IMG/VR virus record: IMGVR_UViG_3300024303_000028
Location: 44,613 to 108,612 of that record
From: a virus
Taxonomy: Duplodnaviria; Heunggongvirae; Uroviricota; Caudoviricetes
Direction: 5' to 3' (one strand)
Length of the DNA: 64,000 bases
Below, in pieces: positions 45,037-60,860 of this stretch (its first letter is position 1; each line of letters starts with the position of its first letter). The position numbers were made by a program, and so were the translations under genes. The notes below the pieces were generated by a model. That model worked only from the letters and a program-made list of their open reading frames with translations. It was not told where the DNA came from and did no database searches.

Positions 45037-45136
45037 GTTACGCCTCCTGATTACTTCTTTACAATGTAACGATCACAGCCAACATAAGCACTCACCACAC
45101 GCATGATTGATCCCTTTGGAATCTCTTGGTGCTTTC

Positions 45137-45397
45137 TCACAACTCCTGAAAAATATATCTAGAGTTCATGGTTTCGACGATCAAATCATTCTGATCGCGG
45201 AAAATGTTCTCGACACGAGAAGTTTGGAGATAGCCATCCTTGAGGTTGCCATCTCTATCCTTATGGTACATCAGCCACATGCACCAGCCAATGGTCAGCT
45301 CTTCGCAAAACGAAACGGTGCAACCAATACGGAGTGGATAACGGCCGTCAGTACGGGTTTCCCCGGTCTTGATATGTTGAATATCTTTAATAATCAT
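45137..45397 (-). CDS. hypothetical protein
   Basis: 86 aa. Confidence 0.4.
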   Translation of the reverse strand: MIIKDIQHIKTGETRTDGRYPLRIGCTVSFCEELTIGWCMWLMYHKDRDGNLKDGYLQTSRVENIFRDQNDLIVETMNSRYIFQEL

Positions 45398-45415
45398 GAT
45401 TGAGACTCCTTCTAT

Positions 45416-45661
45416 TTACTCTGACAGAGTTAACACATGCTGTTTTCTGGTGTTCCTCGCGCGAACAATTTCAGATCGCAGGCAACCACATGAACGCGTC
45501 AGTTGCCTACGCAAAGACTGTCCAGAAACAATGCACGTGTTTCCGCACTTACATTTGCAGTACCACATGGCTGCGGTGGAGGTCCCGAACTTTTGGCGTG
45601 GAGCTCGTCCGGACACATATAAGTTGCCGACAGTTCTGCCGGTCATATCAACAACGCGCAT
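45416..45661 (-). CDS. small zinc-ribbon protein
   Basis: CKCKCGNTC...CGC. Confidence 0.4.
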   Translation of the reverse strand: MRVVDMTGRTVGNLYVSGRAPRQKFGTSTAAMWYCKCKCGNTCIVSGQSLRRQLTRSCGCLRSEIVRARNTRKQHVLTLSE

Positions 45662-45850
45662 ACTTCCTCCATATTATCTTATGAATGTTTGAGATAAGCC
45701 GCTATGAGACGATATGGTAACCGTCGTCCCGGGCATGAACCAAGATTTCACCGACAGCCAAACCACGTCGATAGAGACTTCACACATGGCGGAAATCTCG
45801 TATGTCCGTCCCGTCTGATGATTTCTGACAGTATAAATCATCGTCGCACC

Positions 45851-46219
45851 TCACTCGATAGTGAACTTTTTGACTCGAACAGGAGCATCCGGCTTTAGTG
45901 AGCGCATGGTTTCTATCATATGCTGTGTGCCTCTGCTCTCTCCGTCATGGAATGCAACCAGTGCATCTGCATACTTGGCCATCTGGACATTCCTGCGGAA
46001 GCCGGCAAGCTTACCAAATGACGCCCAGTCCGCAGGGAATGTAATAAGGCCATACCCTCGCTCCTTTGCATATCGTTCGCCCAGCGCATCCGCTCCGCGG
46101 GCATGACCGCTTACGATCTCAATCGGCTCTTTGACATTGGCGAGTACCTTATCGAGATAAGACTTGAGCATCTCGTAATCACTGAAGCTCCGACTTCCGG
46201 CAACGATAACACGAAACAT
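45851..46219 (-). CDS. Rossmann-like DprA/SLOG-type small protein (phage-associated DUF)
   Basis: RVIVAGSRSF...IVSGHARGAD glycine-rich nucleotide-binding-like loops. Confidence 0.45.
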   Translation of the reverse strand: MFRVIVAGSRSFSDYEMLKSYLDKVLANVKEPIEIVSGHARGADALGERYAKERGYGLITFPADWASFGKLAGFRRNVQMAKYADALVAFHDGESRGTQHMIETMRSLKPDAPVRVKKFTIE

Positions 46220-46244
46220 GGTTGACCTCCTTCAAATTTTTAAG

Positions 46245-46328
46245 TGGCGCAGGTGGGACTCGAACCCACACGCTGTTCCCAGCACCGGATTTTGAGACCG
46301 GTTCGTCTGCCATTCCGTACACTGCGCC
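46245..46328 (-). tRNA. tRNA-Leu (anticodon CAA), class II
   Basis: Acceptor GGCGCAG/CTGCGCC, loop CTCAAAA, extra arm GCTG-GGAA-CAGC, T-arm GTGGG-TTCGAGT-CCCAC. Confidence 0.65.
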
Positions 46329-46329
46329 G

Positions 46330-46440
46330 AAAGAAAATCCAGCCTGAATAATCGGCTGGATCTGTTTGCGGGTACTCTTTCAGCCCGCGGCTTAGGCGGG
46401 GAACTTCCCCGCTTTATGAGCCGCGCCCGCCCGGCATATG
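46330..46440 (-). ncRNA. hairpin-rich noncoding segment (terminator and/or small RNA candidate)
   Basis: Minus strand: GCGGGGaagttCCCCGC and CCAGCCgattattcaGGCTGG hairpins, the second followed by ATTTTCTTTC. Confidence 0.3.
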
Positions 46441-46462
46441 GTTATAAATCCCTTCTTCATCC

Positions 46463-46550
46463 AAGGCTCAGCCGAGATTCGAACTCGGTTCACCATAAGC
46501 ATCACACCATCGCCAATGCTTAAGACCCAAGGACTCAGAGAATTTGCGTT
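46463..46550 (-). pseudogene. tRNA-like fragment (T-arm plus 3' acceptor remnant, no matching 5' acceptor)
   Basis: CCGAG-TTCGAAT-CTCGG T-arm followed by CTGAGCC, but no complementary 5' strand found. Confidence 0.3.
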
Positions 46551-46755
46551 TCAAGATCTGTAATTTCATATTTTTCTTGGGCATGAAAATACGATCTGCC
46601 TTTGAAGTACGCGCCGCACTTACACTTATAGTGTCGCACAACCTCAATTTCCCAATCATTTTCGTTGTAGTCCGTTTCCAATATCTTGAGATTCAGGGCG
46701 TCATTGCACTGCGGGCATCTCGTCGTGTGTTAGCGCTCCTCAAATTTTATTTTTA

Positions 46756-47061
46756 TTACTTCCAATCCAACATCTGTCCACACTGAGTACAATAAATATC
46801 GTCTTTGGTTACATCTGGATGGTATTTATTTTCTCCGCAAGCACAGCCACAAGTAGGACATCCATATTTCCAACCATCATCAATCAACAACTTATATGTC
46901 AGCTTCTCAGGCTTCTTTGGAATCTGTTTCTCAAGGGCTTCTTTTGCCATCTCTAACCATTCAATATCGTCTGAAGTTAGTTGATATCCTAATGTTTCAT
47001 CGTAATGATAATCAGAGGATAAAACATCATCAATGTATTTAATTGCTTCTTTTACATCCAT
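46756..47061 (-). CDS. small Cys-rich (zinc-binding) protein
   Basis: GCPTCGCACGENKYH...CTQCG. Confidence 0.45.
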   Translation of the reverse strand: MDVKEAIKYIDDVLSSDYHYDETLGYQLTSDDIEWLEMAKEALEKQIPKKPEKLTYKLLIDDGWKYGCPTCGCACGENKYHPDVTKDDIYCTQCGQMLDWK

Positions 47062-47100
47062 AAATTTACCCCTTAAAAGTTTGTTTTTATAATATTTCCG

Positions 47101-47406
47101 TTAGCTCAACGATGGCTTTCCGAAGTCAACCATCTCCAGAGTACTTGTATTTGCATTATTGATAAGCATTGTTAGTTGTTTTTGTAAGATTTTTGCCTCA
47201 TCAATGGTAAGTCTAATAGTTGAACACCACTGCCCTTGATATCTGCGATATGTCTCCAAGCTAATGCGTACTTTGCCATTATCATCTTCTATCCACATTG
47301 TAGTGTTAAGAGACTCGTCTCCTTGTTTGAATCGGAAACTTGTTTGTGTCTTGTCATTACAACGTTTTGCCGCTTCGAGTATGTCCTTTTTTAAATTCGC
47401 TGACAA
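47101..47406 (-). CDS. hypothetical protein
   Basis: 101 aa; TTG start. Confidence 0.4.
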   Translation of the reverse strand: MSANLKKDILEAAKRCNDKTQTSFRFKQGDESLNTTMWIEDDNGKVRISLETYRRYQGQWCSTIRLTIDEAKILQKQLTMLINNANTSTLEMVDFGKPSLS

Positions 47407-47436
47407 ATAATCACCTCATAAAATTCGTATTATAAG

Positions 47437-47508
47437 TGGATCCAGAGGGATTCGAACCCCCGACTCCCTGCTTGCAAAGCAGGTACGCTACCGCTGCGTC
47501 ATGAACCC
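47437..47508 (-). tRNA. tRNA-Ala (anticodon UGC)
   Basis: Anticodon arm CCTGC-TTTGCAA-GCAGG; G3:U70 wobble in the acceptor stem (Ala identity element); T-arm GGGGG-TTCGAAT-CCCTC. Confidence 0.75.
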
Positions 47509-47790
47509 ATGAAGCACAGCAATGGACGAACGTTTTTACCTGTTAAACTAACCGCCAGCTATTGACGGTATCGGGTTTGAACCAATGTGTTCGGACCATT
47601 GCTGTGGAGAGTCGGCTCGTTCAGGGCGACCATTCCTTATTAGATGCAACGCTCTCTATGCATTAACCAAGACTGGAGCGCAAGCTGAGGAGGTCGATCT
47701 CAGTTGCATTCTCCAATGGAACATGGATTTCTGTTCTCTGGGGAAGATCCAACGGGTTGCGCTTACAGCATGGCAGAGGCGTGTTGGATA

Positions 47791-47879
47791 TGGTGCCGAT
47801 GGCGGGGGTCGAACCCGCGGTGTATCGATGTAACGGTTTTTAAGACCGCTGTGTCTCGTCCTGTCTGCACCACATCGGC
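47791..47879 (-). tRNA. tRNA-Leu (anticodon UAA), class II, encoded CCA
   Basis: Acceptor GCCGATG/CATCGGC then ACCA; loop CTTAAAA; 14-nt variable arm; T-arm GCGGG-TTCGACC-CCCGC. Confidence 0.75.
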
Positions 47880-47912
47880 ATGTGTATCATTTCATCCGGA
47901 CATGTTTCAAAT

Positions 47913-48242
47913 TCATTGAAAGATTTCTTTCAAATCCAACGGGATGACAGAATCTTCAATAGTCTCGAGTTCTTCGATGCCGATGATCTTGTACCCATGT
48001 CTTTTGAAATAAGACGCCTGATCCCAGCCAACGCCAAGATCGTATAGGGACTTGCCGATGGTAACATTCTCTCCATACTTTTCATAAGCGAACTTCAGCC
48101 ATTTCTCGTCATACTTATCATATATGCACGTCTCAGGATGTAGTGTCTTTCTAGCAAATAGCATGAAGGTAAGTGCGTTCATGCCACAACGAACTGCAAC
48201 TTTACCTTCCTCAAAGCCGTCTGGTAGAACGAATTGCTTCAT
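47913..48242 (-). CDS. PLDL-motif family small protein (paralog 1)
   Basis: 109 aa, N-terminal VAVRC...LTFMLFA, C-terminal VIPLDLKEIFQ. Confidence 0.55.
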   Translation of the reverse strand: MKQFVLPDGFEEGKVAVRCGMNALTFMLFARKTLHPETCIYDKYDEKWLKFAYEKYGENVTIGKSLYDLGVGWDQASYFKRHGYKIIGIEELETIEDSVIPLDLKEIFQ

Positions 48243-48258
48243 CTGTCCATCTCCCTCT

Positions 48259-48588
48259 TTATGAGTAAATATCGGTTAGATTCAATGGATTTGGGTTGCA
48301 TCGACCGGTGACATGGGCATCGAAGTATTCCTCAAATTCTGTAAATGGGATAACCGGAAAGCCATACTCAGAATAAAAAATTTCCTCACCCGTACTTAAT
48401 CTACCGTCTAGCTTACGAACGCCAAGCCCATGCGCATAACACACCGTCTTGAAGTCATAACGATCCAGCTCGCCGCCGAGCGGATAATGCGAGAAACCAA
48501 ATTCCTCGGCAAGATCACAGAAGAGATCGTTGTCCTTTGCTTCGACCTTAACGGCCATCCGAGTATTCATCAAGTCTCTAAAATTCAT
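48259..48588 (-). CDS. PLDL-motif family small protein (paralog 2)
   Basis: 109 aa, C-terminal NPNPLNLTDIYS. Confidence 0.55.
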   Translation of the reverse strand: MNFRDLMNTRMAVKVEAKDNDLFCDLAEEFGFSHYPLGGELDRYDFKTVCYAHGLGVRKLDGRLSTGEEIFYSEYGFPVIPFTEFEEYFDAHVTGRCNPNPLNLTDIYS

Positions 48589-48606
48589 ACGATCCCTCCA
48601 TTAAAG

Positions 48607-48686
48607 TGCAGGAAGCGGGACTTGAACCCGCACGTGCTGGACACCAGATCCTAAGTCTGGCGCGTCTGCCATTCCGCCATTCCTGC
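48607..48686 (-). tRNA. tRNA-Leu (anticodon UAG), class II
   Basis: Acceptor GCAGGAA/TTCCTGC; arm CCAGA-CTTAGGA-TCTGG; 13-nt variable region; T-arm GCGGG-TTCAAGT-CCCGC. Confidence 0.7.
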
Positions 48687-48687
48687 A

Positions 48688-48778
48688 TGGTAGGAGCTCC
48701 CGGATTCGAACCGGGGTTTACCTTGCTAGGGCTTCCGGTTTATAAGACCGGGGCTCTCACCGGCTGAGCTAAGCTCCC
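48688..48778 (-). tRNA. unusual tRNA: anticodon UAU (Ile-like), class-I-type D-arm but a 19-nt extra arm, encoded CCA
   Basis: Acceptor GGGAGCT/AGCTCCT+ACCA; D-arm GCTC-AGCCGGTGA-GAGC; anticodon arm CCGGT-CTTATAA-ACCGG; T-arm CCCGG-TTCGAAT-CCGGG; 5' end overlaps the HNH gene's last 3 codons. Confidence 0.5.
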
Positions 48779-49332
48779 ATTTGATAAGCTCTTGAATGTG
48801 ATTCCAATCCGTAACTCTTGCACCATTTTCTGACAGCATTATCAGTAACTGAGTACATTCTCCCCACAGCAGTGAAGTTCCCGTGCTGCTCACTAATCAC
48901 CGATCTCAGTTCTTTCTTGGAAGGCTTAGCTGATACACGCTGTCGTCTCACTACGGTGCGCTGCTTTCGCTTTGAATGGCTAGCGCCTTTCATATTTTCT
49001 TTATGGTCAACCCATCGCAAATTACCTAGATGATTGTTTGCACGATTACGATCGATGTGGTCTACCTCTGGAAGTGATAACGGATTGTCAAGAAATGCTT
49101 CTGCAACTAAGCGATGAATGTACTTTTTATATTGTTTTCCATCGACATTCAGACCAATTTGCATATAACCAGTAGTAGTTACATATGATTGCCGAAGATG
49201 CTCGGGTTGCCACACCAATGCGCCGTTATTCTTTATATACCGTCCCTTCGTAAGAACCCTTCCATGAGATGAAATCATGTGAGAAGATTCAAAGCCGACT
49301 ACATCTTTCCAAACCTCCTGTGTATAATCCAT
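48769..49332 (-). CDS. HNH homing endonuclease (NUMOD4-like N-terminus, HNH core, C-terminal HTH)
   Basis: Start at MDYTQEVW after a GGAG RBS. VDHIDRNRANNHLGNLRWVDHKEN HNH motif. C-terminal GRMYSVTDNAVRKWC shared with ORF 12266-12529. Confidence 0.8.
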   Translation of the reverse strand: MDYTQEVWKDVVGFESSHMISSHGRVLTKGRYIKNNGALVWQPEHLRQSYVTTTGYMQIGLNVDGKQYKKYIHRLVAEAFLDNPLSLPEVDHIDRNRANNHLGNLRWVDHKENMKGASHSKRKQRTVVRRQRVSAKPSKKELRSVISEQHGNFTAVGRMYSVTDNAVRKWCKSYGLESHSRAYQMGA

Positions 49333-49697
49333 ACCATTCACTCCAAACATAAATAGAATGGGACAGCAGGTCTGACGGACTGCTGTCCCAAGGCACTGTC
49401 TTACTCCTGTCAGTGGAGCGTAAAGACGATGCCACAATCCGCGCCTCCGCTACCCTTTATGCATGGGGCGTGAGGCACTTGCGCTTTGCCAGTCATCAGC
49501 GTTTGTCAACAGGCAACTGATCAGGCCGCCGCGGCGCCGCTCGAAAACATAACTAGCATGCCACGCCGCTTGTTGTTTTGGGACTTTGAACCCACAGGGA
49601 TTCCGGACTCCCCGGTAGCTTTACTGGCGGACCTTAACGTCGGTCCAAACGGCGGATGGGTTGTGATCGGCTAACCTCTTTTGCTCTAAATGCCGTG

Positions 49698-49770
49698 AGC
49701 TACTGGTGGGACTTGAACCCACGACCTACTGATTACGAGACAGTTGCTCTACCTGCTGAGCTACAGCAGC
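49698..49770 (-). tRNA. tRNA-Thr (anticodon CGU)
   Basis: Acceptor GCTGCTG/CAGTAGC; arm ACTGT-CTCGTAA-TCAGT (U31-U39 mismatch); T-arm GTGGG-TTCAAGT-CCCAC. Confidence 0.65.
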
Positions 49771-50030
49771 ATATGGTACAGACTAAAGTCGCGTACTTCA
49801 GTTGTACCACACGTTTGCAAACACTCTGGCCTGTATACAAGCCATTGTCGGGAGCGAGAGGAATCGAACCTCATCAAACCATCTCTCCCATACCAACCCG
49901 GTTAGGTCCGGGCAGCCCGCGCATCTGCCGTTTGATCGCAGTGAGAACGTACCCGCCATTCGACTTGATATTGATCGTCCTCACTCTGCCTTTGAGTAGT
50001 GGCGCAATTTGCTATCATATCTACTCGTGG

Positions 50031-50114
50031 AGCTGGTAGCCAGATTCGAACTGGCGATGCGGTTTCCCATCCGGCTTACAAAACCGGCGCACTCGGCCGC
50101 TGTGCGATACCAGC
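50031..50114 (-). tRNA. unusual tRNA: anticodon UGU (Thr-like) with a 15-nt extra arm
   Basis: Acceptor GCTGGTA/TACCAGC; arm CCGGT-TTTGTAA-GCCGG; extra arm (G)ATG-GGAAACCG-CAT(C); T-arm GCCAG-TTCGAAT-CTGGC. Confidence 0.5.
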
Positions 50115-50121
50115 ATGATTG

Positions 50122-50451
50122 TTATTCGTTTATATCCCAACATGTGAAAATCAACGATAGATCAAGCGGAGAAACACGTTCAATTTCTCCACAAACATCG
50201 CTTAATGTAAGAATCGGATCTTTGCCAACGCTGTCTCGACTAAGGTGTATTCCGAGACGCCTGTCGCCATGTCGACCTCGCGTCATACCAAGATACATAT
50301 GCTTGAAGGGCTTAATCGAACAATGGCGACTGCATTCCTCACCGTTAATCCAAACAATGTTTTCTCGAGCACACAAATCCATGAACGCGTAGAACTCGTC
50401 CGCCCCATTGATTTCGATCGCATAATTCCCGTGAATAATCCGGTCCATCAT
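50122..50451 (-). CDS. PLDL-motif family small protein (paralog 3)
   Basis: 109 aa, AIEINGADEFYAFMDLCARENIVW, C-terminal VSPLDLSLIFTCW. Confidence 0.55.
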   Translation of the reverse strand: MMDRIIHGNYAIEINGADEFYAFMDLCARENIVWINGEECSRHCSIKPFKHMYLGMTRGRHGDRRLGIHLSRDSVGKDPILTLSDVCGEIERVSPLDLSLIFTCWDINE

Positions 50452-50475
50452 ACCCCTCCATGTTAGAATTAAAAG

Positions 50476-50856
50476 TCATAAACCGGCATCCTCCATGTAT
50501 ATGTCATTTAGATCAATCGGTGCAACACATGTGCTGGGCACATACCCACACGCATCGAGAAGATCCTCATATGTATAAACGACCTGTGGACTCAGAGGTT
50601 TATGAGCATATCGGCCGACACATCCATACGTGGTGAGAGCAATACACGGTTCCCATCCACGTTCTTCATCCTTTCGATATAATTCGTCTATATGATCGGA
50701 TAACAAAGATGCACCGCTTGCAAACACCCATCCAAGCTCATGAAGCATTTCACATACATGGCGAAAGTCGTCTGCGTGGATACGGAATGCAACCGTACCA
50801 TTTTTATTCATTACGAAACCATTTGTGATGTCGACATATTGTCTTATTGCATCCAT
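50476..50856 (-). CDS. PLDL-motif family protein (paralog 4)
   Basis: Start trimmed to MDAIRQY (AAGGTGG RBS) because the track N-terminus (GTGGSNPS) is a translation of tRNA-Ser; C-terminal APIDLNDIYMEDAGL. Confidence 0.5.
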   Translation of the reverse strand: MDAIRQYVDITNGFVMNKNGTVAFRIHADDFRHVCEMLHELGWVFASGASLLSDHIDELYRKDEERGWEPCIALTTYGCVGRYAHKPLSPQVVYTYEDLLDACGYVPSTCVAPIDLNDIYMEDAGL

Positions 50857-50894
50857 ACTTCCGCCCACCTTACATCTTAATGCTGAATACCAAG

Positions 50895-50980
50895 CGCAGC
50901 GAGAGGGATTCGAACCCCCGGTGCCTTTCGACATCACTGGTTTTCAAGACCAGCGCCTTAAACCGCTCGGCCATCGCTGC
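50895..50980 (-). tRNA. tRNA-Ser (anticodon UGA), class II
   Basis: Acceptor GCAGCGA/TCGCTGC; arm CTGGT-CTTGAAA-ACCAG; 17-nt variable arm; T-arm GGGGG-TTCGAAT-CCCTC. Confidence 0.75.
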
Positions 50981-50994
50981 ACAAAACAAATGAA

Positions 50995-51309
50995 TTACTC
51001 ACTATATAACTGAATAAGATCCAGGGGAACTGGATCAGATTGATTTCGGATATCAATCTCAAGCTCTTCAAAACTAATCACATGACACGGATAATACTTA
51101 CGATCACACACCGTATCATACATTAAATGATAGCATCGATTGAAAATGATTGTGCGATCGATTTTCCCTATGCTGAGAAACTTACTATAATCCGTTGGCT
51201 TATCGCCGCTACCCCATACCAGACCGCATTTTTCACATAGATTCATGAACTCTACAAGCTGACTTTTGTTGCATAGAACAGCAACTTCTCCGTCCAAAAA
51301 TCTCTGCAT
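50995..51309 (-). CDS. PLDL-motif family small protein (paralog 5)
   Basis: 104 aa, GEVAVLCNKSQLVEFMNLCEKCGLVW, C-terminal DPVPLDLIQLYSE. Confidence 0.55.
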   Translation of the reverse strand: MQRFLDGEVAVLCNKSQLVEFMNLCEKCGLVWGSGDKPTDYSKFLSIGKIDRTIIFNRCYHLMYDTVCDRKYYPCHVISFEELEIDIRNQSDPVPLDLIQLYSE

Positions 51310-51472
51310 ACATCCTCCTAATTAGAAAACATTCAGGCTCCCTTATGCACCTTTGCCGAAGCGAGGGAGCCACCGTGCTTGGAGTGGGCGCGGCCCGAGC
51401 TCATATATTTGCTCGGATATGAACAGACAATGTGAAATGCTATGCGTACACAAGACTCAGGCGGCAACCTGA

Positions 51473-51548
51473 ATGGCTGGGGATGCAGGACTTGAACCTG
51501 CGCATACGGGAGTCAAAGTCCCGTGCCTTCACCAACTTGGCGAATCCC
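51473..51548 (-). tRNA. tRNA-Gln (anticodon UUG), encoded CCA
   Basis: U1:A72 acceptor TGGGGAT/ATCCCCA then GCCA; arm CGGGA-CTTTGAC-TCCCG; T-arm GCAGG-TTCAAGT-CCTGC. Confidence 0.75.
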
Positions 51549-52050
51549 CAACGGGGGTCGGTTTCACCGGGCGTCCACCCAAGACCAGGGGTCTTGGATT
51601 GCTTTCTCTAACCGACAAGGATGCACTTTCTCTTTAGCCCCGCGCAGAAGGCAGCGTTTCCTCCCGCTTGCACACTTTCGTAGTGCCCACGCTATCAACG
51701 CCAGTTATTCGGCGATCATTCCGGGAGCGACCCGGTCGCACGGGACTCATCCCTCTGGTTACCACCCTGTCAAGGCGTGGATAGTCTAAGCGTTAGGCGA
51801 CCTCCCCGCTTCCCGGAAGGGAGATCTGCCTGCTGGAATCGTACCAGCCCCTCCATGCTTCTTCGATACTTCTCCACATGGATTCGAACCTCGCTTATTC
51901 AGGATCACACACAACCTGATCGCTCCCTCATCTACAGCTCAGAGGAAGCTTTGGCGTAGCACAGAGGCTGTACAGTGAGCCCGCCGGATGTTTATGCTCT
52001 TTACGCCACATTATTGCGAGCAGACTTTTACCCGGTACTGCCATAAGGGG

Positions 52051-52124
52051 CGTCTGAGTGAAGGGATTCGAACCCCCGACCCCCTGACCCCAAATCAGGC
52101 GCGCTACCAAACTGCGCTACACTC
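52051..52124 (-). tRNA. tRNA-Pro (anticodon UGG)
   Basis: C1:G72 acceptor CTGAGTG/CACTCAG; arm CCTGA-TTTGGGG-TCAGG; T-arm GGGGG-TTCGAAT-CCCTT. Confidence 0.75.
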
Positions 52125-52135
52125 AGATATGAGCC

Positions 52136-54387: not shown

Positions 54388-54588
54388 TCAAAGTACGGTA
54401 AGTTCCGTCCGTTGAAAGGGGTCAAAAATGCGTAAATTTTGAAAATGATTCGCCGAAGATACCTCCAACACCGACTCTTGGAAGTACTCTTCGTACTCCT
54501 TTCTGGTGGGGAAAAGCATCCAACTGCCATCCGGGAGCCGGCCTCTGTGACCGCTCGGAACATCAAAGCCGCAGGGCGAATCATACAT
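54388..54588 (-). CDS. small ORF translationally coupled to the RT gene
   Basis: 66 aa; its start overlaps the RT stop by 8 nt. Confidence 0.3.
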   Translation of the reverse strand: MYDSPCGFDVPSGHRGRLPDGSWMLFPTRKEYEEYFQESVLEVSSANHFQNLRIFDPFQRTELTVL

Positions 54589-55723
54589 TACCGGACAGCT
54601 CCTTTCTGACCATTTCCATCAGGTCGACATTGAACTTCTCATTGTAGCGGCGAATGATATGTTCAATGTAGTCCTTTTCAACCATCTTGTAATAGGAAAT
54701 CAAACCGGAGAAAACCTGCACATCATGCAGTTCCCAATGCGTACCTTTCTGGACATCACAAATGAAGGAGTGACACATGGCTTTGAAACGATCCACGTTC
54801 TTCCAACCAATAGTGATTTGATTTCGACCGTTGAGCATCAGACCGAGACACCAATTGCTGCCGGAAGAAGAACCGTAGTGAGTCTTCTTACCATTGATAG
54901 AAAAAGGAGCGTTGAATGCCTTCAGGGTTGCAACGACCCTTGCTTCGATCTTTTTATAATTGAAGTCATGGGGACAGCTGATCAGAATATCGTCGGCATA
55001 TCGGGTATACGTCATATGCACTTCATGAAGTCCGTTGGCTAGGCGATGGTCAAGGGGGATCATCATGAGGTTGGTCAACATGGGAGAGATCGGCGTACCC
55101 TGAGGCAACCCACCGTTCAGCGTGCAGAGATTCAAACATTTCCTCAAAGCGACAGGGCCTTCAGGATCTCGCACAACCTCCGTAAAGGGGAAGATCTGTG
55201 TGATCTGATCGAACAAAAAGTTCTCAGTGGTAGACGGAAAAAAACCGGAAAAGTCCAGCTTCAAAAACCATCGTGCACCGGTGGCCTGATGGCGCTTCAG
55301 GACATCAACCGTGCTACGATCTTTGACGTATGCGAAAGCGGATGTATGATGGAGAGCGAAAAACTTCGTCTCAAAGATCGTTTTCAGCTCGTTCAGCGCC
55401 GCTTTCAACTCTTCATTCGGAGCGTCGATCTGGCGCAAACCGCCGGTCTTCTTCGGAATGTGGAAGGTATGGTACAGTTCTTGACGAGGCCGGTTGTACA
55501 ATGCGGCATGACGATCTGCAAAATCTTTCAAAACCGCGGTCAGAAGTGATGGGGATACCTGTGCTCTGAGACGTTCCGGAATTTGAGACACGTGACGGGT
55601 GATCGTTCCGCCACCGGCGACACGGTCAGGCTCATTCAGAAGGGACTCGAATGATCCATAAATCATTTCCTCGAGAGTCAGCTGTCGAGCTTTACGAAGA
55701 ATATGAGTAGTAATGTAAGGCAT
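54581..55723 (-). CDS. retron-type reverse transcriptase
   Basis: Start at the ATG 9 nt after GGAGG. Motifs LKLDFSGFFPST (xDxxxFFxSI-like), LPQGTPISPMLTNL, RYADDILIS (YADD), KKTHYGSSSGSNWCLGLMLN (retron NxxH...VTG-type region, here CLG). No maturase X or endonuclease domain. Confidence 0.75.
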   Translation of the reverse strand: MPYITTHILRKARQLTLEEMIYGSFESLLNEPDRVAGGGTITRHVSQIPERLRAQVSPSLLTAVLKDFADRHAALYNRPRQELYHTFHIPKKTGGLRQIDAPNEELKAALNELKTIFETKFFALHHTSAFAYVKDRSTVDVLKRHQATGARWFLKLDFSGFFPSTTENFLFDQITQIFPFTEVVRDPEGPVALRKCLNLCTLNGGLPQGTPISPMLTNLMMIPLDHRLANGLHEVHMTYTRYADDILISCPHDFNYKKIEARVVATLKAFNAPFSINGKKTHYGSSSGSNWCLGLMLNGRNQITIGWKNVDRFKAMCHSFICDVQKGTHWELHDVQVFSGLISYYKMVEKDYIEHIIRRYNEKFNVDLMEMVRKELSGNV

Positions 55724-56076
55724 GGATGAACCTCCTCTGTAACCTGTGATATCTGTGTGGATGAGGGGCACGCAAGTTAGTTAGTGCTCGTTGCAGTAAC
55801 TTAGCGATTGGTGCCTTAGAGAAAAATTTGTCGATGAGTGCGAACAACATGTTGCTTTGGTAAAGGTTGAAGGAACTGATATCTTGGGGTTGACAATCGA
55901 GTCGAAATCTGTTACCAGAAGCGAGCAGTTGCCTGAAGAGAAGAGGCGCGCGTAATACGTGGATCCTGCAGCTGGCTGCCTCTCTCTCCTCGCCGACGAT
56001 TCGTTACTCCCGGTAAGACCTGAGAGTCCTCCTAAAGATAGAAGGTATGCGTTACAGAATTAACATTTTAGGTGCG
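55724..56076 (-). ncRNA. candidate retron ncRNA (msr/msd) region upstream of the RT
   Basis: 353-nt ORF-poor leader. 8-nt inverted repeat UCUGUAAC (plus 56051-56058) ... GUUACAGA (plus 55736-55743) at its two ends, like a2/a1. Five GTWAC motifs. 10-nt palindrome CAACATGTTG. Confidence 0.3.
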
Positions 56077-56730
56077 TTAGCACATAGTGATGAAACTCAA
56101 GAGGGTTTCATCACTGAATGTAAAGGTCGGTTCGCTAATGACAAAACGACCAGCAGCATCGGGGGCGAAATGGACGTTCGGATCGATCTTGATGATGGGG
56201 TTAAGGGGATGAGGTTTCTGAGGGTCCAGTCTCGTTGTACCGCCCCTGTATGTATATTTGAAATAGGACTTCATACCGCAGAAGGAACGTGTGACGGCGG
56301 ATTGACGAAGAACGTCGGCAATTTTCCACGACTCACCCTCATCCTGTACGGTGTTATGTCTTTCTGGGAACTGCAGAAGTTGCGAAATAGCAGGAAGTGA
56401 AGCGATGCATTGCGCCGCTTGAAGCTTCCCCTGTGTTTTCCTCAAATGCTTGGGGACCGACACCTTGATAACGAACGGCTGGAGCATATTGCGTTCTTCT
56501 TCTGAGAAGAGGCGCAACAAACCATCGTCCTTATTCAGCCACTTGTGAATCCGGCTTGTCAGGTAAAAATTGTCAGGGACGCCATAGTCAGAGAACGAAG
56601 AGTACGCAACGCTGTTTCTGGCAAGAAGAAACTCTTCGCTTACTTTCGTCCACGGGATAGGATCTTTGAAGTATCCATCCTTTCGGCCGAAAAGCACGAT
56701 CGAACCGACAGGGATATCGGCGAAACGCAT
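56077..56730 (-). CDS. hypothetical protein upstream of the retron-like unit
   Basis: 217 aa. Confidence 0.45.
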   Translation of the reverse strand: MRFADIPVGSIVLFGRKDGYFKDPIPWTKVSEEFLLARNSVAYSSFSDYGVPDNFYLTSRIHKWLNKDDGLLRLFSEEERNMLQPFVIKVSVPKHLRKTQGKLQAAQCIASLPAISQLLQFPERHNTVQDEGESWKIADVLRQSAVTRSFCGMKSYFKYTYRGGTTRLDPQKPHPLNPIIKIDPNVHFAPDAAGRFVISEPTFTFSDETLLSFITMC

Positions 56731-56754: not shown

Positions 56755-57429
56755 TTAAAGGGCGACGAGATCGAACTTGAAAGCGTCGAAGATGATCATC
56801 TTCTTCAGCTCCTCACCGCGGACGAAGTTGATGAAGTTTGCGACACCCATAGCGACGATGTTACGAATGGTGGGGCATACGGAAAGCTCCACGCCACAGG
56901 CGGAAACAGGCGTTTCGGCTTTTGCTTCCTCATGGGTGAAATCCATAGAGGCGATGAAGGATTTGACCATCTGCTGGTCAGACCAGTCGGCAGCATAATG
57001 CTGAGCGTCGGTCAGACGAGTTCGGAAGTCGAAGAAACCCTTGATGAATGAATTACCGACACAGGACTTCGCGATCTTCTGACGGAGCTCGATGGAGTCG
57101 ACACAGAGGAAGACATATCCCGCCAGGTTTTGATTGACATACCCCTTCGTCTGCACCCGCAGATCCTTCTTCACATCAGGGTTGATGCGGGCGAGGTGGT
57201 CGGCTAGTGCTTCAACCTTCGGGCGACCAATATCTTCATGGTCGAAAAGCTGGTTGGAAATGTTCTTGGACTCCACGACATCGAAGTCGTAGAGAGTCAT
57301 CTGAGTGATGCCAAAGCGTGCAAGGTTTTCAGCGACAACGGAACCAACAGAACCGCAACCGATGATGTGTACACGGCCCTTCACGTCGTTCGGGCTGAAC
57401 CAGCCGTGAAACTTGATCTGGTTGAACAT
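56755..57429 (-). CDS. ThiF/MoeB/HesA-family E1-like adenylyltransferase
   Basis: Rossmann loop HIIGCGSVGSVVAENLARFG; DIGRPKVEALADHLARINPDV matches the ThiF/MoeB signature; C-terminal Cys pair SACGVELSVC. Confidence 0.75.
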   Translation of the reverse strand: MFNQIKFHGWFSPNDVKGRVHIIGCGSVGSVVAENLARFGITQMTLYDFDVVESKNISNQLFDHEDIGRPKVEALADHLARINPDVKKDLRVQTKGYVNQNLAGYVFLCVDSIELRQKIAKSCVGNSFIKGFFDFRTRLTDAQHYAADWSDQQMVKSFIASMDFTHEEAKAETPVSACGVELSVCPTIRNIVAMGVANFINFVRGEELKKMIIFDAFKFDLVAL

Positions 57430-57443
57430 GTGATTGATCCTCC

Positions 57444-58304
57444 TTAATACTGATGGTATCCGCCGCCCCAGATGAAATCATCATAATCATCGACATCGTC
57501 GATATCAAAACCCTGATTGTTAACAGGATTCGCGTAAGACGGGCGCGTTTTGGTGGTATCCGCTTTGGTACGAGCTTTCTTAGGCGTCTGGGGCTGCTTC
57601 GTAGACGCCGTCTGAGTTTTGGCAGCAGCACCAGACTTTCCACCGACGGTAGTAGGCGTGGCGGGGGTGTACCTGCGGGTTGCGATCAGAGAATTTGCTT
57701 CCTCAATGAAAGTACGAATCTTGGACTGCGGGAAAATGATGTCCACATCTTCCTTTTCATAGAGGGTGTTGTTGTCTGCATCGTACACCTTGACGATGTA
57801 CTCACGACGCTTATTCAGAATCATGAAGATATAAAAACCTTCATCGTTCAGCTGCGCAACGATCTTGCCCTGATGCTCAAGGTCAGTACCAGACGGGGAA
57901 CACGCCATGTTGACATGACTATGAGCCTGGAACTTCAGCTTCGCGAAGTCCTCATCATTGATCGTCATCAGCCAGGCATCATAAGCCTCCTGGTCGGTTT
58001 CGACAGTTACACCAGTAACCGTCTGAGGATACACCAGAATCTTTTCGACCAGGAAATGATTGGGGGCGACTCTGCTGACCAGACCATGCCAGGCGACTTC
58101 GGTACTGAAGTAGTCGATCAGGGCGAACATTTTTTCACAGGCTTCTTCAGTGAACTCAACCTTCACACGCTCATCGTTGCGAAAGGAAAAGTCCTGACTG
58201 AATGCAAGCTTGCCATCGAGGATCTGCATGCCGGGCAACTTCTTCATGAGTTGCTCAGCAATCTGACCCAAAATCTGAGGAGTGACACGCATAGGCTTAG
58301 GCAT
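57444..58304 (-). CDS. JAMM/JAB (MPN+) metallopeptidase
   Basis: HSHVNMACSPSGTD = HxHx7Sx2D JAMM motif, upstream Glu (EVAWHG); low-complexity Thr/Lys/Pro tail ending FIWGGGYHQY. Confidence 0.75.
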   Translation of the reverse strand: MPKPMRVTPQILGQIAEQLMKKLPGMQILDGKLAFSQDFSFRNDERVKVEFTEEACEKMFALIDYFSTEVAWHGLVSRVAPNHFLVEKILVYPQTVTGVTVETDQEAYDAWLMTINDEDFAKLKFQAHSHVNMACSPSGTDLEHQGKIVAQLNDEGFYIFMILNKRREYIVKVYDADNNTLYEKEDVDIIFPQSKIRTFIEEANSLIATRRYTPATPTTVGGKSGAAAKTQTASTKQPQTPKKARTKADTTKTRPSYANPVNNQGFDIDDVDDYDDFIWGGGYHQY

Positions 58305-59742
58305 TATTCAACTCTCCCTTCAAATACAGCAGAGCGTCCTCCGGACTAACGAACCGCCCATCAAGCAGTTCGATACATTTCTTGCTGGTACAGAACAGTT
58401 CTTCGAGGAAGTGGGTCATCGTCGGGGATTCACCGACATTCAGAGACGCAGCACTGGTCTTACACTGCATCACAGCGCCGATCAGATCACCTGCCTGAAT
58501 TCGATCCTGAATCAGCTCAAGATGCTGACCGAAGCAGGCGAAGTGGTACAGGTGCGGATTCGGCATATAGTCCTTGTATTCCGGAGCGAAGCTATAACTA
58601 CTCACGGTACTGATGGTTCCACGGGTATCGAGGTTATAGTACGCGACGAAACGAACCTTCATAATGGGATCAGGTCCGAAGATTGCTTTCAGAAGCATCA
58701 TGCGATCTTCCTCATCATCGAAGAAATCGCTGACGGATACATCATCCCAATAGAAAGAATCTTCATTGTTGGCGATAGACTCAAACATATCGGGATCCCA
58801 GAATTCGATAGGAGTGGTGACGATGAAGGAAAAACCCTCAGCTTTAGCTTCCACGGGATTAAACCACGTCTGATGATTCAGGAATTCGATGAGTTCTTCA
58901 TCGTTGCCGCCGGCGTTCTTACGGAGGATGTACGCAGACAGATCGAGATTCCGCTGATCCAGCATGAGACACAGTTCGCGGTAGCTCGCCATCAAATCGG
59001 ACATCCTGCGCCGAATGTGGCTGATATCTTCGTTGAGCGCATTGATATGAACGTCAGCGACGCGCTTCATCAAACCGCCGCAAACGCTTTTGATCTGATA
59101 CCCACGGAAGTCGATATTCTTTTCGAGAACTCGAATGGCGTTCAGATACGCTTCCTCGGTTTCGCTGTTAAGGCCGCGGATGACCTCGAACTCTTCGGGG
59201 GTAACCGGCTTACCCTCAAAAAGCGCAGGCAGCAGGGGCGGGATCAGACACTGCAGAGCATGCCATGTACGCGTATCCATCGTGTTGAGGAAGATCAGCA
59301 CAGCACACTTCTCCTTGTTGCAGAAGATGCGACAGTGAGAGACCAGCTTCGTGCTTTCGATATGACTGCTCAGTTTTGCAACATACTCAAAGTTGGAATC
59401 CTTGAACTTGTCGCTCAGATTCTGCATCGTATTGTCAGCCCGTTCTCCAGCCTGGCGAAGATTGACAATCGCAATCTCGTGATCCGGGACATGGCCAATG
59501 ACTCGCGTCATCAGATGTTCGTCGTCAAGGTAATTACCCGAGGATTCGATATTCACGGCAGAATCATTTACCCACATGGAAAACGTCTCTCCTTCGGGCA
59601 AACGGTTGCCGAGAAACGCTCTCAGGGTTGCGGTGAAAGAATAGTCGCCGCGGAAGGTGCGGCCCGAAATACGATCAAAGATCGCGTTACCAGCGGGACT
59701 GGTGAACTGGGTGTCCTGCTGGGTGACGGAATACATAAACAT
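58297..59742 (-). CDS. large protein with C-terminal E2/UBC-like signature (tentative)
   Basis: C-terminal YSFAPEYKDYMPNPHLYHFACFGQ resembles UBC FxPEYPxxPP...HPN...C. N-terminal ~350 aa unassigned. Operon order (this gene, JAB, E1) matches E2-JAB-E1 systems. Confidence 0.4.
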   Translation of the reverse strand: MFMYSVTQQDTQFTSPAGNAIFDRISGRTFRGDYSFTATLRAFLGNRLPEGETFSMWVNDSAVNIESSGNYLDDEHLMTRVIGHVPDHEIAIVNLRQAGERADNTMQNLSDKFKDSNFEYVAKLSSHIESTKLVSHCRIFCNKEKCAVLIFLNTMDTRTWHALQCLIPPLLPALFEGKPVTPEEFEVIRGLNSETEEAYLNAIRVLEKNIDFRGYQIKSVCGGLMKRVADVHINALNEDISHIRRRMSDLMASYRELCLMLDQRNLDLSAYILRKNAGGNDEELIEFLNHQTWFNPVEAKAEGFSFIVTTPIEFWDPDMFESIANNEDSFYWDDVSVSDFFDDEEDRMMLLKAIFGPDPIMKVRFVAYYNLDTRGTISTVSSYSFAPEYKDYMPNPHLYHFACFGQHLELIQDRIQAGDLIGAVMQCKTSAASLNVGESPTMTHFLEELFCTSKKCIELLDGRFVSPEDALLYLKGELNNA

Positions 59743-59835
59743 TTAGAAACCTCCTCACGGCGATTTGTACATGAGACCCTAATCAAAGGAAAGGCCGGGA
59801 CTTAACGCCCCGGCCTTGATTTTCGATTATTCCGA

Positions 59836-60534
59836 TCAGGCTTCGGTGATAGCCGCAGCGACGGCAGCCTTCTCAGCCTTGACCTCCGCCAGAGCGGCGG
59901 CGAAACCAGCCTCGACCTTGCGCAGCTGCAGGATGGCGACGCCGACCTCTTCCTGAACCCACGCCTTCATATCGACGGTGCCCTCGGGAGCAGTCAGGGT
60001 CACAAGGGCATTGCCCTCAGCGGTAGTGACGCGGGAGAACATCACACCGTTCTGACCGACACAACCGCCCTTATCGCCGTCAGTCAGGATGCTGAAAACC
60101 GCATGCTTTTCGGCACCGGAACCTTCCATCAGGGACAGGACGGCAGGGCGATACTTCTTCAGGAGCTTGATATCCTCGAGCTTCTGAGAGGAAATGATGT
60201 GGGCGATGTTGCCGATGATCTGGATCTTGGCGACGGGAGTGTCGTTGGCGGCCACAACTTCGGCCTCGCAATCGGAGGCGTTGTCGGCCTTGGTGGTCAC
60301 CATGACGAAGCAGCGAGGACTGGTGATGCCCAGGTCATCCAGGGACTTATCGATCGCGCCGGTGGGCAGGGAGGAACCGTCGATGGAGACGACGCCGGTG
60401 GCGTAGTCCATGCCGGCCTCATTGAAGATCTCACGCACGGTAGCGCCGGAGGAAACGTTGACGGTCTTGCTGGTGACGTTGTTGCGGACGGTAACGGAAA
60501 CGATCTGAGACATATTTATTCTCCTTTTATTCAA
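59836..60534 (-). CDS. hypothetical protein with N-terminal beta-grasp-like (ubiquitin-like?) region
   Basis: First ~80 aa alternate beta/alpha like a beta-grasp fold, but no C-terminal Gly-Gly; Ala-rich helical C-terminus. Assignment weak. Confidence 0.3.
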   Translation of the reverse strand: MNKRRINMSQIVSVTVRNNVTSKTVNVSSGATVREIFNEAGMDYATGVVSIDGSSLPTGAIDKSLDDLGITSPRCFVMVTTKADNASDCEAEVVAANDTPVAKIQIIGNIAHIISSQKLEDIKLLKKYRPAVLSLMEGSGAEKHAVFSILTDGDKGGCVGQNGVMFSRVTTAEGNALVTLTAPEGTVDMKAWVQEEVGVAILQLRKVEAGFAAALAEVKAEKAAVAAAITEA

Positions 60535-60860
60535 ATGATTTTGTATTTCGGAACTTTACCACGATTTACCGTGGTGGGGAGGTTGGTCGAGTTCAGTGGG
60601 GGAACGCGAACGCTGCTTCATGCTCTTCTCTCCTTTTCGGTCGTGAAGCGTACACCTTCAAATTGTCCGGGAAGTGAAAACTCCCCGCCGCAGTTCGTTA
60701 CCCTTTTGGGCATCCACCCTGCACCTCGTGGCGGTTGCGGCTCTGCAGGGCTACGGCCGCCTACCCACAATGGCGGCACGCATCCGATCCTCTGTTTAAT
60801 TAACATTTTTGTTAATCGATCGGCATTAAAAAACCTCGGCGACCATGACCGAGGTGAGGG

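What the first reader, a model, noticed from the sequence alone, without database searches (positions are those of the whole stretch)
56755..60534. E1-like / JAMM / E2-like operon: candidate ubiquitin-like conjugation (Bil/Bub/CBASS-Cap2/3-like) or sulfur-carrier module next to the retron-like unit
Four co-directional genes. The first is a 232-aa protein with a possible N-terminal beta-grasp. The second is a 481-aa protein whose C-terminus carries an E2/UBC-like FxPEY...NPH...C signature. The third is a JAMM peptidase with an intact HxHx7Sx2D site. The fourth is a 224-aa ThiF/MoeB-type E1. The E2-JAB-E1 order mirrors bacterial ubiquitination-like antiviral operons. However, no free Ubl with a C-terminal Gly-Gly and no cyclase or effector were seen, and the E1 is minimal (ThiF-sized). 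So this could be a divergent system, a counter-defence mimic, or a sulfur-transfer relay fed by the phage cysteine desulfurase.
Basis: partly seen in the sequence, partly recalled or inferred. Interest (0 to 1): 0.8.

Follow-up and report, generated by a model that had tools for sequence, protein, structure and literature searches.

The report
Phage ubiquitin-like conjugation cassette with retron
A gut phage carries its own ubiquitin-like protein-tagging kit (tag, activating enzyme, trimming protease and an unknown cysteine enzyme) that is almost always found joined to a retron-type reverse transcriptase, a combination I found described nowhere in the papers searched.

Summary

In 107 of 110 related loci with enough flank, from ~100-130-kb phages of gut Clostridia, the same block recurs: d134, Ubl, p481, JAB, E1, (p217), structured ncRNA, RT. 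The flanking genes vary. The ncRNA has retron-like terminal inverted repeats and covarying hairpins.

Cysteine desulfurase is not linked (3 of 111 loci), so a sulfur relay is unlikely.

Best reading: a phage-borne Ubl conjugation cascade coupled to a retron. It is a new variant of a known kind. Its target and biological role are unknown.

The parts
60277..60513 (-). Ubl domain (aa 1-79 of the 225-aa product), beta-grasp, ending Lys-Ala-Asp-Asn-Ala79
60232..60276 (-). Disordered linker after Ala79; proposed JAB cleavage site lies at its start
   Evidence: pLDDT is below 50 for residues 75-91. The linker is variable or absent in homologues, while the DNA(A) motif at the junction is kept in most fused forms. 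Cleavage is inferred, not shown.
59839..60231 (-). d134: ~131-aa partner domain of unknown fold family (beta-sheet plus helical hairpin)
   Evidence: It is a separate 133-134-aa gene just upstream of the Ubl gene in most loci, and is fused after the Ubl in 22 ORFs. No Pfam, PDB or PHROG match. There is no conserved Cys or His. One Lys, in the KYRP motif, is at least 90% conserved.
59791..59817 (-). Terminator-like hairpin (11 bp, 8 GC) between the Ubl-d134 gene and p481
   Evidence: The number of such sites in the region is not above shuffle expectation, so any function as an attenuator is inferred only.
58297..59742 (-). p481: 481-aa protein. N-terminal a/b domain (1-220), long helix (224-277), C-terminal a/b domain (282-481) with invariant His397 (58552-58554) and Cys403 (58534-58536), and Asn435 at 99%
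   Evidence: AF2 pLDDT 89. Conservation measured over 123 and 54 sequences. The family has 2,432 cluster representatives at E<=1e-3. No family, fold or PDB match. The candidate E2-like role is inferred.
57444..58304 (-). JAB/JAMM metallopeptidase (286 aa); motif His128..Asp141 at 57882-57923
56755..57429 (-). Minimal ThiF/MoeB/UBA5-type E1 adenylation domain (224 aa); Gly loop at 57343-57360; invariant Cys178 at 56896-56898
56077..56730 (-). p217: 217-aa protein of unknown function, an optional cassette member
   Evidence: Homologues sit in the same position in 52 of 147 loci. No family match.
55736..56058 (-). Retron-like ncRNA. 5' arm UCUGUAAC (56051-56058), then an invariant G, two covarying hairpins (down to ~56006), a GC-rich long hairpin, and the 3' arm GUUACAGA (55736-55743)
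54581..55723 (-). Retron-type reverse transcriptase (380 aa from the ATG at 55723, which follows a GGAGG)
   Evidence: RVT_1, E 3.7e-20. NCBIfam retron_St85_RT, E 1.7e-55, but 188 bits is below the 235-bit cut-off. PADLOC RT_II-A, E 4.7e-51. Present downstream of the E1 in 138 of 147 loci.

Best explanation
This is a phage-encoded ubiquitin-like protein conjugation cascade that forms one conserved module with a retron.

Proposed steps:
1. Gene 1 makes a Ubl-d134 precursor. The JAMM peptidase cuts after Asp-Asn-Ala79 and frees a Ubl with a C-terminal Ala. In most relatives the Ubl is made free and already ends in ...DNA, so the universal job of the JAB is more likely trimming short extensions and removing conjugates.
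2. The small ThiF/UBA5-like E1, presumably a homodimer, adenylates the Ubl C-terminus. It probably then holds the Ubl as a thioester on invariant Cys178.
3. The Ubl passes to invariant Cys403 of the 481-aa protein. That protein acts as the E2/ligase and picks the target with its N-terminal domain.
4. The Ubl ends up on a lysine of a target. The target is unknown. d134, which is always adjacent or fused, is the first candidate partner or substrate.
5. The adjacent ncRNA and RT make a retron-type RNA-DNA product that senses or gates the cascade, or is acted on by it.

The block sits in a long leftward gene array, apart from the virion and lysis genes identified in the window, in temperate ~100-130-kb phages of gut Clostridia. 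I therefore read it as a conflict system: either anti-defence or exclusion of competing phages.

Shown here: the identity of Ubl, E1 and JAB; the conserved catalytic-type residues; the Ubl tail motif; the fused and split forms; the near-universal co-occurrence; and the retron-like RNA architecture.

Inferred: every chemical step, the E2 role of p481, the target, the coupling to the retron, and the biological role.
For: Ubl and E1:
- The tail after beta-5 is 5 residues, as in ubiquitin.
- The tail motif is K-A-D-[N/G/S]-[A/G]. Rare GG variants occur (KADGGC, VKAYGG), and extensions of up to about 3 residues occur.
- The E1 keeps the Gly loop, Asp48, Lys71 and Asp111, plus invariant Cys178. Its closest solved relatives are UBA5 and Uba1 adenylation domains.

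JAB and p481:
- The JAMM site is 100% conserved, even in loci whose Ubl needs no processing.
- p481 has His397 and Cys403 at 100% and Asn435 at 99% over 123 sequences.
- p481 lies between the Ubl and JAB genes and overlaps the JAB gene by 8 nt.

The module:
- The fusion versus split-gene pattern of Ubl and d134 is a Rosetta-stone link.
- The block d134-Ubl-p481-JAB-E1-(p217)-RT is complete in 107 of 110 loci. The commonest flanking gene family is in at most 55 of 147 loci.
- E1 identity to the window falls to 47% and p481 identity to 21-28%, yet the order holds.

The retron:
- In the ncRNA, 12 of 14 predicted pairs show compensatory changes.
- Covarying terminal arms occur in 67 of 95 loci, against 1.9 expected from shuffles.

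Phage context: DNA polymerase III alpha, DnaB, primase, NrdD, endolysin, integrase and 11 tRNAs.
Against: - The C-terminal Ala (preceded by Asn) is not a canonical Ubl end.
- The E1 is a single 224-aa domain. It has no separate Cys domain or ubiquitin-fold domain, and its C-terminal half did not align to ThiF. The placement of Cys178 in a crossover loop is therefore inferred.
- No target is known.
- All loci were found through the E1 itself, so I cannot say how many related phages lack the cassette.
- Part of the synteny could be vertical inheritance in one phage clade.
- No experiment exists.
Confidence: 0.55

Rival explanations
1. E2-independent tagging. The E1 alone activates the Ubl and transfers it, as in archaeal SAMP/UbaA or Urm1/Uba4 urmylation. 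p481 would then be a target, a scaffold, a substrate adaptor or a second (cysteine) peptidase, not an E2.
For: No UBC fold or E2 family match was found for p481. Minimal ThiF-sized E1s work without an E2 in the SAMP and Urm1 systems (established knowledge). Bub operons also carry a second, non-JAB peptidase (PMC11601596).
Against: A 100% conserved His-x5-Cys plus Asn435 in a 2,432-cluster family points to catalysis, not a passive target. The His-before-Cys spacing does not fit the usual cysteine-peptidase order (from my own knowledge of those families). The gene is translationally coupled to the JAB gene.
Confidence: 0.2
2. Two independent neighbours. The Ubl cassette and the retron are separate systems that simply travel together in this phage lineage.
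For: All loci come from one related group of Clostridia phages and were retrieved through the E1. In the window a 353-nt gap separates the last cassette gene from the RT. Two loci with ample flank lack the RT. The crAss-like and Xanthomonas phage E1 loci show no RT.
Against: The RT is present in 138 of 147 loci at a fixed position, while every other flanking family is in at most 55 loci. That is hard to explain by inheritance alone at 47-63% E1 identity.
Confidence: 0.25
3. Sulfur-carrier relay. The Ubl is thiocarboxylated by the E1 using sulfur from the phage cysteine desulfurase, for example for thiolation of the phage tRNAs.
For: The E1's best NCBIfam hits are ThiF and MoeB, all far below cut-off. 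There is a weak SAMP2 hit. JAB trimming of sulfur carriers is known for CysO/Mec+ and QbsE/QbsD (my own knowledge). The window has a desulfurase at 42447-43577 and an 11-tRNA array.
Confidence: 0.06
4. C-terminal chemistry other than protein tagging. The E1 would act like MccB or PaaA and modify the Asn-Ala end of the small protein, for example through a succinimide or phosphoramidate, to make a toxin-like product.
For: MccB and PaaA are among the PDB relatives of the E1. MccB acts on a C-terminal Asn (my own knowledge), and the tail here has a conserved Asn.
Against: The substrate is a folded 79-aa beta-grasp, not a short peptide. The terminal residue is Ala or Gly, not Asn. The E1 lacks the N-terminal peptide-clamp region (224 aa). 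A JAB isopeptidase and a Cys protein are conserved alongside it.
Confidence: 0.05

Closest known systems
Bil (bacterial ISG15-like) systems, BilA-D
   Same: Both have a separate Ubl, a JAB peptidase, an E1 and one further Cys-bearing protein in one operon. The Ubl model's best structural match is BilA. Both sit in a phage-host conflict setting.
   Different: - BilD is a multidomain IAD-AAD-CYS E1 and BilB is a recognisable E2 (PMC11601596). Here the E1 is a 224-aa single domain, and p481 is a 481-aa three-part protein with no detectable UBC fold.
- The Ubl tail is Asn-Ala.
- The system is encoded by the phage, not the bacterium.
- It has an obligatory d134 partner and a retron.
Type II CBASS Cap2/Cap3 (also type II Pycsar and 6A-MBL)
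   Same: Both combine a ThiF-type adenylation domain with a JAB peptidase. The E1 here scores against the E1 part of PADLOC 'E1-E2' and NCBIfam cap2_3 models. From my own knowledge, Cap2 acts on CD-NTase C-termini that are not always Gly.
   Different: There is no CD-NTase or other signalling enzyme and no E2-E1 fusion. A dedicated Ubl is present. The matches cover only about 70 residues of the nucleotide-binding fold.
Type I Bub operons (BubAB precursor cut by the JAB of BubCD)
   Same: In both, the Ubl is made as a fusion protein that a JAB peptidase is expected to cleave to expose the reactive end.
   Different: In Bub the fusion partner is the E2, the JAB is fused to the E1, the catalytic residues are Ser/Tyr, and DUF6527 BubE is present. 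None of these holds here. Cys178 and Cys403 are invariant.
UBA5-UFM1-UFC1 and ThiF/MoeB-type minimal E1s
   Same: UBA5 is the best solved-structure match to the E1 profile, E 1.7e-16. Both are single adenylation domains without a separate Cys domain.
   Different: Only the N-terminal ~105 residues align. The C-terminal half here is family-specific, with motifs DAQHYAADW and TPVSAC. There is no Zn-binding CxxC pair (visible in the alignment).
Retrons, closest type II-A (St85/Sen2-like RT)
   Same: The RT is closest to retron RT models. An upstream ~320-nt ncRNA has terminal inverted repeats, a conserved G after the 5' arm, and covarying hairpins.
   Different: - The RT score is below the NCBIfam cut-off (188 vs 235 bits).
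- There is no Rfam match.
- The accessory genes are a Ubl conjugation set, which the retron classification paper does not list (PMC7736814: no mention of ThiF, JAB or ubiquitin).
- msDNA was not shown.
Lambda/T1 tail-assembly TAPI (Ubl) plus TAPK (JAB)
   Same: This is a phage-encoded Ubl domain fused through a linker to a small C-terminal domain, with a JAB predicted to release it (PMC1779556).
   Different: Those loci have no E1 and sit in the tail module. Here an E1 and a Cys protein are present, and the block lies outside the virion and lysis genes identified in the window.

Membership tests
Ubiquitin-like conjugation systems (generic: Ubl + E1 + peptidase) | Beta-grasp Ubl with a flexible C-terminal tail ending in a small residue | tested here: met
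Ubiquitin-like conjugation systems (generic: Ubl + E1 + peptidase) | E1 adenylation domain with an intact nucleotide-binding site | tested here: met
   Pfam ThiF, E 5e-27. Gly loop, Asp48, Lys71 and Asp111 conserved at 99% or more.
Ubiquitin-like conjugation systems (generic: Ubl + E1 + peptidase) | E2 with a UBC fold and a catalytic Cys | tested here: inconclusive
Ubiquitin-like conjugation systems (generic: Ubl + E1 + peptidase) | Formation of Ubl-target isopeptide bonds | not testable with these tools
   Needs biochemistry or mass spectrometry.
Bil system | BilD-type E1 with IAD-AAD-CYS domains | tested here: not met
   The E1 is 224 aa with one adenylation domain. The definition is from PMC11601596.
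Type II CBASS | CD-NTase plus a fused E2-E1 (Cap2) | tested here: not met
   There is no cyclase in the block. The E1 is a separate gene. PADLOC hits cover only the Rossmann part of the E1-E2 models.
Bub system | DUF6527 BubE protease; Ubl-E2 or E2-E1 fusions; Ser/Tyr oxyester chemistry | tested here: not met
   No such Pfam hit in any cassette protein. The domain arrangement differs. Cys is invariant in both the E1 and p481.
PRTRC (ParB-related, ThiF-related cassette) | PRTRC ThiF, proteins A/B/C/E/F and ParB above NCBIfam cut-offs | tested here: not met
   PRTRC_ThiF scores 33 bits against a cut-off of 144.75. No other PRTRC model hit.
ThiS/MoaD-type sulfur-carrier systems | Carrier ending in Gly-Gly, with a linked sulfur donor (desulfurase or rhodanese) | tested here: not met
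   Asn-Ala tail. Desulfurase linked in 3 of 111 loci. No rhodanese domain.
Retron | Retron-clade RT | tested here: inconclusive
   The best models are retron St85 and RT_II-A (E 1e-51 to 1e-55), but the score is below the NCBIfam cut-off.
Retron | Adjacent ncRNA with a1/a2 inverted repeats, a branching G and msr/msd hairpins | tested here: met
   8-nt perfect arms lie 307 nt apart. Covarying arms occur in 67 of 95 loci against 1.9 in shuffles. Two hairpins have compensatory changes in 12 of 14 pairs, and a G is invariant after the 5' arm. That this G is the branch point is inferred.
Retron | Production of msDNA | not testable with these tools
   Needs expression and a nucleic-acid gel or sequencing.

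The most novel reading that the evidence does not exclude
This is a new class of retron whose accessory or effector module is a complete ubiquitin-like conjugation cascade, carried by phages rather than bacteria. The RT-msDNA complex would gate Ubl conjugation, or be its substrate or scaffold. The phage would use this to tag host defence proteins or a competitor's virion proteins. In addition, p481 would be a previously unrecognised family of E2-type Ubl transferases with no detectable similarity to UBC enzymes.
Probability: 0.3. Interest if true: 0.9.

Novelty: new variant of a known kind. Interest (0 to 1): 0.8.

Why it matters
Prokaryotic ubiquitin-like conjugation (CBASS Cap2/3, Bil, Bub) has so far been described as a bacterial weapon against phages. 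Here the machinery is on the virus side.

It is also widespread. The p481 family has 2,432 clusters at 50% identity. The E1 has 252 IMG/VR matches and 61 loci in GTDB species representatives.

If it conjugates proteins, four things follow:
- It would be a viral use of Ubl tagging in prokaryotes, parallel to eukaryotic viruses that manipulate ubiquitin.
- It would widen the rules for Ubl C-termini, with Asn-Ala in place of Gly-Gly.
- It would add a new transferase family.
- It would give retrons a new kind of partner.

Similar E1 gene strings occur in Crassvirales isolates and in Xanthomonas and Erwinia jumbo phages. The JAB gene and the matching gene order were seen only in the Crassvirales locus. 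These offer culturable systems to test the idea, although homology of their upstream proteins to p481 was not shown.

Tried and rejected
p481:
- Profile searches of PDB sequences with 15- and 54-sequence alignments found nothing.
- Pfam on all 18 first homologues gave only coiled-coil noise.
- NCBIfam, PHROGs and PADLOC gave no meaningful hit for p481, d134 or p217.

Searches that failed or came back empty:
- The search for related loci with the p481 alignment failed for lack of a conserved stretch. The E1 alignment worked instead.
- tblastn of p481 against 50,697 GenBank phage records found no match.
- nhmmer with the window's RT-upstream region found almost nothing, and the region's overall fold z-score is only -1.6. 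The ncRNA emerged only after clustering the same region from 123 loci.
- Rfam had no match.
- No GG-ending small ORF lies in the two gaps.

Homology claims I do not make:
- Homology of p481 to the crAss-like 388-aa family or to the Xanthomonas 892-aa protein: hhalign probability is 0.2% or less. Only the gene order and an H..C-x-G motif are shared.
- p481 itself as an E1 substrate. Its C-termini are acidic tails that often end in N-E, N-G or N-A, with no Ubl-like tail.

Literature: nine searches found no description of this cassette.

Full report
**1. What is at the coordinates**

Four minus-strand ORFs occupy 56755-60534.
- p481 and the JAB gene overlap by 8 nt.
- The JAB-E1 gap is 14 nt and the E1-p217 gap is 24 nt.
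- A 93-nt gap with a strong terminator-like hairpin (59791-59817) separates gene 1 from p481.

The window is a phage. It carries:
- DNA polymerase III alpha, DnaB, primase, NrdD, endolysin, integrase and a second RT;
- 11 tRNAs at 43.6-52.1 kb.

Its polymerase is closest to large Clostridioides and Bacillus phages. Exact copies of the E1 and JAB proteins occur on about 20 metagenomic contigs, the longest 121.7 kb. No source gives them a name.

**2. The secure enzymes**

E1 (56755-57429):
- Pfam ThiF, E 5e-27.
- A five-sequence family profile hits UBA5 (1.7e-16), Uba1/UBA6 active adenylation domains, MoeB, TcdA, Cap2, MccB and ThiF.
- hhalign to E. coli ThiF gives 97.7% probability.
- Across 123 distinct homologues the Gly loop, Asp48, Lys71 and Asp111 are at least 99% conserved, and Cys178 (motif TPxSAC) is 100%.
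- Only the N-terminal half aligns to known E1s.

JAB (57444-58304):
- No Pfam hit.
- PADLOC JAB models match weakly, 5e-4.
- A family profile hits Rpn11, 0.0024.
- Glu69, His128-Ser-His130, Ser138 and Asp141 are 100% conserved in 127 homologues.

**3. The Ubl that was thought missing**

Homologues of gene 1 are 225 aa, so the start is probably the ATG at 60513. Alignment shows two modules.
- Residues 1-79 end in VTTKADNA.
- A C-terminal ~131-residue module starts AKIxIxG.
- In distant loci these are two separate genes, in the order d134 then Ubl. Examples: L001 has 133 aa plus an 80-aa gene ending KADNA-stop; L007 has 134 aa plus a 76-aa gene ending TDNAA-stop.

Among 109 free-standing Ubl ORFs:
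- 56 end exactly in ...DNA;
- 12 end in ...NAA;
- others end in KADGAR, KADNAR or KADGGC, and one ends in VKAYGG.

The mature end is therefore K-A-D-[N/G/S]-[A/G], the positional equivalent of ubiquitin's Gly-Gly. In 22 fused ORFs, most keep a DNA(A)-type junction; three have ENA.

**4. The 481-aa protein**

- The word-indexed search found 17 homologues.
- The exhaustive profile search found 2,432 cluster representatives, of which 1,198 have E <= 1e-30. The listed hits are nearly all full length.
- The AF2 model is confident: pLDDT 89.4. It has an N-terminal a/b domain, a 54-residue helix and a C-terminal a/b domain.
- Over 123 sequences, His397 and Cys403 are 100% conserved, Asn435 99%, and Gly405 and Ala423 97%.

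The order of elements around the Cys recalls a UBC fold: strands, a loop with N-P-H, a short helix, the Cys, then three helices. That resemblance is my reading of the secondary-structure string, not a test.

The tests were all negative or uninformative. So p481 is a conserved Cys/His protein in the E2 position of the operon. Membership of the UBC superfamily is open.

**5. The unit is bigger than reported, and it is a conserved block**

With the E1 profile I collected 61 loci from GTDB genomes and 80 of 252 matches in IMG/VR.
- Most of the GTDB loci are MAG contigs labelled Clostridia: Oscillospiraceae, Christensenellaceae, Lachnospiraceae, Acutalibacteraceae and Ruminococcus.
- They come from ruminant, termite, rabbit, chicken and human guts.
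- Many contigs are 100-130 kb and some are 180-360 kb. The longer ones may be integrated prophages; I did not check this.

HMM scans of all ORFs gave one dominant order: d134 > Ubl > p481 > JAB > E1 > (p217) > RT.
- Of 110 loci with at least 4.5 kb upstream and 3.5 kb downstream, 107 have all of Ubl, d134, p481, JAB and RT.
- Clustering all flanking ORFs shows the next most common same-strand family in only 55 of 147 loci.
- E1 identity to the window is 47-63% in these loci.

The block, RT included, is therefore kept together against a changing background.

**6. The RT is a retron-like unit**

- The RT's best models are retron St85 (1.7e-55, below cut-off) and PADLOC RT_II-A.
- The gap upstream of the RT is 250-400 nt in most loci.
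- Fifty of these gaps share sequence.
- A 29-sequence alignment that includes the window shows an invariant UGUAAYG, two hairpins and AACAA. Of 14 predicted pairs, 12 show compensatory changes.
- In the window the 5' motif UCUGUAAC (56051-56058) is perfectly complementary to GUUACAGA (55736-55743). The latter lies just before the RT's GGAGG and the ATG at 55723.
- The same arrangement, with arms that covary, occurs in 67 of 95 loci against 1.9 in shuffled controls.

This is the a1/a2 architecture of retron msr-msd RNAs, with a conserved G after the 5' arm. Rfam has no match. The retron classification paper does not mention ThiF, JAB or ubiquitin among retron-associated genes.

**7. Mechanism**

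The best-supported model is a Ubl cascade:
- the JAB processes the precursor and removes conjugates;
- the E1 adenylates the Ala or Gly end;
- thioesters form on Cys178 and then on Cys403;
- the Ubl is transferred to a lysine.

The JAB active site is invariant even where the Ubl gene ends exactly at ...DNA. Its conserved role is therefore likely deconjugation or trimming, not only precursor cleavage.

d134 is the first candidate partner or substrate, because it is always adjacent or fused. It has no conserved Cys or His, and one Lys (in KYRP) is at least 90% conserved.

How the retron connects is unknown. The block lies in the long leftward gene array, apart from the virion and lysis genes identified in the window, in temperate phages. 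I favour a conflict function.

**8. Rivals**

- The sulfur relay is disfavoured by the non-GG tail and by the lack of desulfurase linkage, 3 of 111 loci.
- E2-independent tagging remains plausible, with p481 as adaptor, target or peptidase.
- Mere adjacency of two systems also remains plausible.

**9. Comparison and novelty**

The cassette fails the defining features of Bil (E1 architecture), type II CBASS (no cyclase, no fusion), Bub (no DUF6527, and Cys is used) and PRTRC (scores far below cut-off). It works most like Bil and, for precursor cleavage, like type I Bub. Nine literature searches found no description of it.

Weaker E1 relatives (26-30% identity) sit in comparable positions in two other phage groups:
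- Crassvirales, e.g. Kolpuevirus: 388-aa protein with YMHSH...PCLGxGP, then JAB, then ThiF.
- Xanthomonas and Erwinia jumbo phages: 892-aa protein with IHPHM-x11-CLGSFHSELEDHI, then ThiF.

Profile comparison did not show these upstream proteins to be homologous to p481.

**Verdict:** a real, widespread and undescribed phage module. It is a new variant of a known kind.

Noticed in passing
window 55736-56058 (-): A structured ncRNA with retron-like terminal inverted repeats, an invariant G and two covarying hairpins lies directly upstream of the RT. It is conserved across the phage clade and has no Rfam family.
   Followed up: yes
window 59791-59817 (-) and 60833-60855 (-): GC-rich terminator-like hairpins flank the Ubl-d134 gene. 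This could give the Ubl a higher expression level than the enzymes. The number of such sites is not above shuffle expectation.
   Followed up: no
L151 (Kolpuevirus OQ198718) 3280-7493; L150 (Xanthomonas phage PhiXhv-12 PV764601) 3310-7560: Cultured Crassvirales and Xanthomonas/Erwinia jumbo phages carry ThiF-like E1 genes annotated 'thiamine biosynthesis protein'. In each, the E1 is preceded by a protein with an H..C-x-G motif, and in crAss-like phages a Prok-JAB gene lies between them. The gene order is the same as here, but homology to p481 was not demonstrable.
   Followed up: partly
window 4726-6015 (+) and 3-3377 (+): A second reverse transcriptase (phrog_1423, E 2e-64) sits next to a 1124-aa ORF near the endolysin and integrase. 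It looks like a diversity-generating retroelement, so the phage has two RTs of different kinds.
   Followed up: no
window 58297-58340 (C-terminus of p481) and homologues: p481 proteins end in acidic low-complexity tails. In 38 of 121 the last two residues are N-E, N-G or N-A. The E1 ends in -AF in 80 of 123. These may be docking motifs; they are unexplained.
   Followed up: partly
L006 10001-10744 and L007 109-852 (contig ERZ28633446 scaffold_10): The d134 plus Ubl gene pair is duplicated about 4.5 kb apart in one 131-kb phage contig, with an identical d134 protein in both copies. A Band_7 gene follows the first pair. A few other loci also show two pairs.
   Followed up: no
window 56077-56730 (-): p217 is an unannotated 217-aa protein inserted between the E1 and the ncRNA. 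It is present in only about one third of loci (52 of 147).
   Followed up: partly
window 42447-43577 (-): A cysteine desulfurase-like gene (phrog_12787; Aminotran_5 in L004) lies 14 kb from the E1. It is not a conserved neighbour of the cassette, being within 10 kb in 3 of 111 loci.
   Followed up: yes
window 43604-52126 (-): An array of 11 tRNA genes lies directly downstream of the RT. It includes a predicted tRNA-Ile with anticodon TAT and three tRNA-Leu.
   Followed up: no
L001 8380-8847 and L002 2608-3075: In some relatives an RNase H gene (PF00075) lies about 1 kb upstream of d134. RNase H matures retron msDNA in known systems, so this may be relevant.
   Followed up: no
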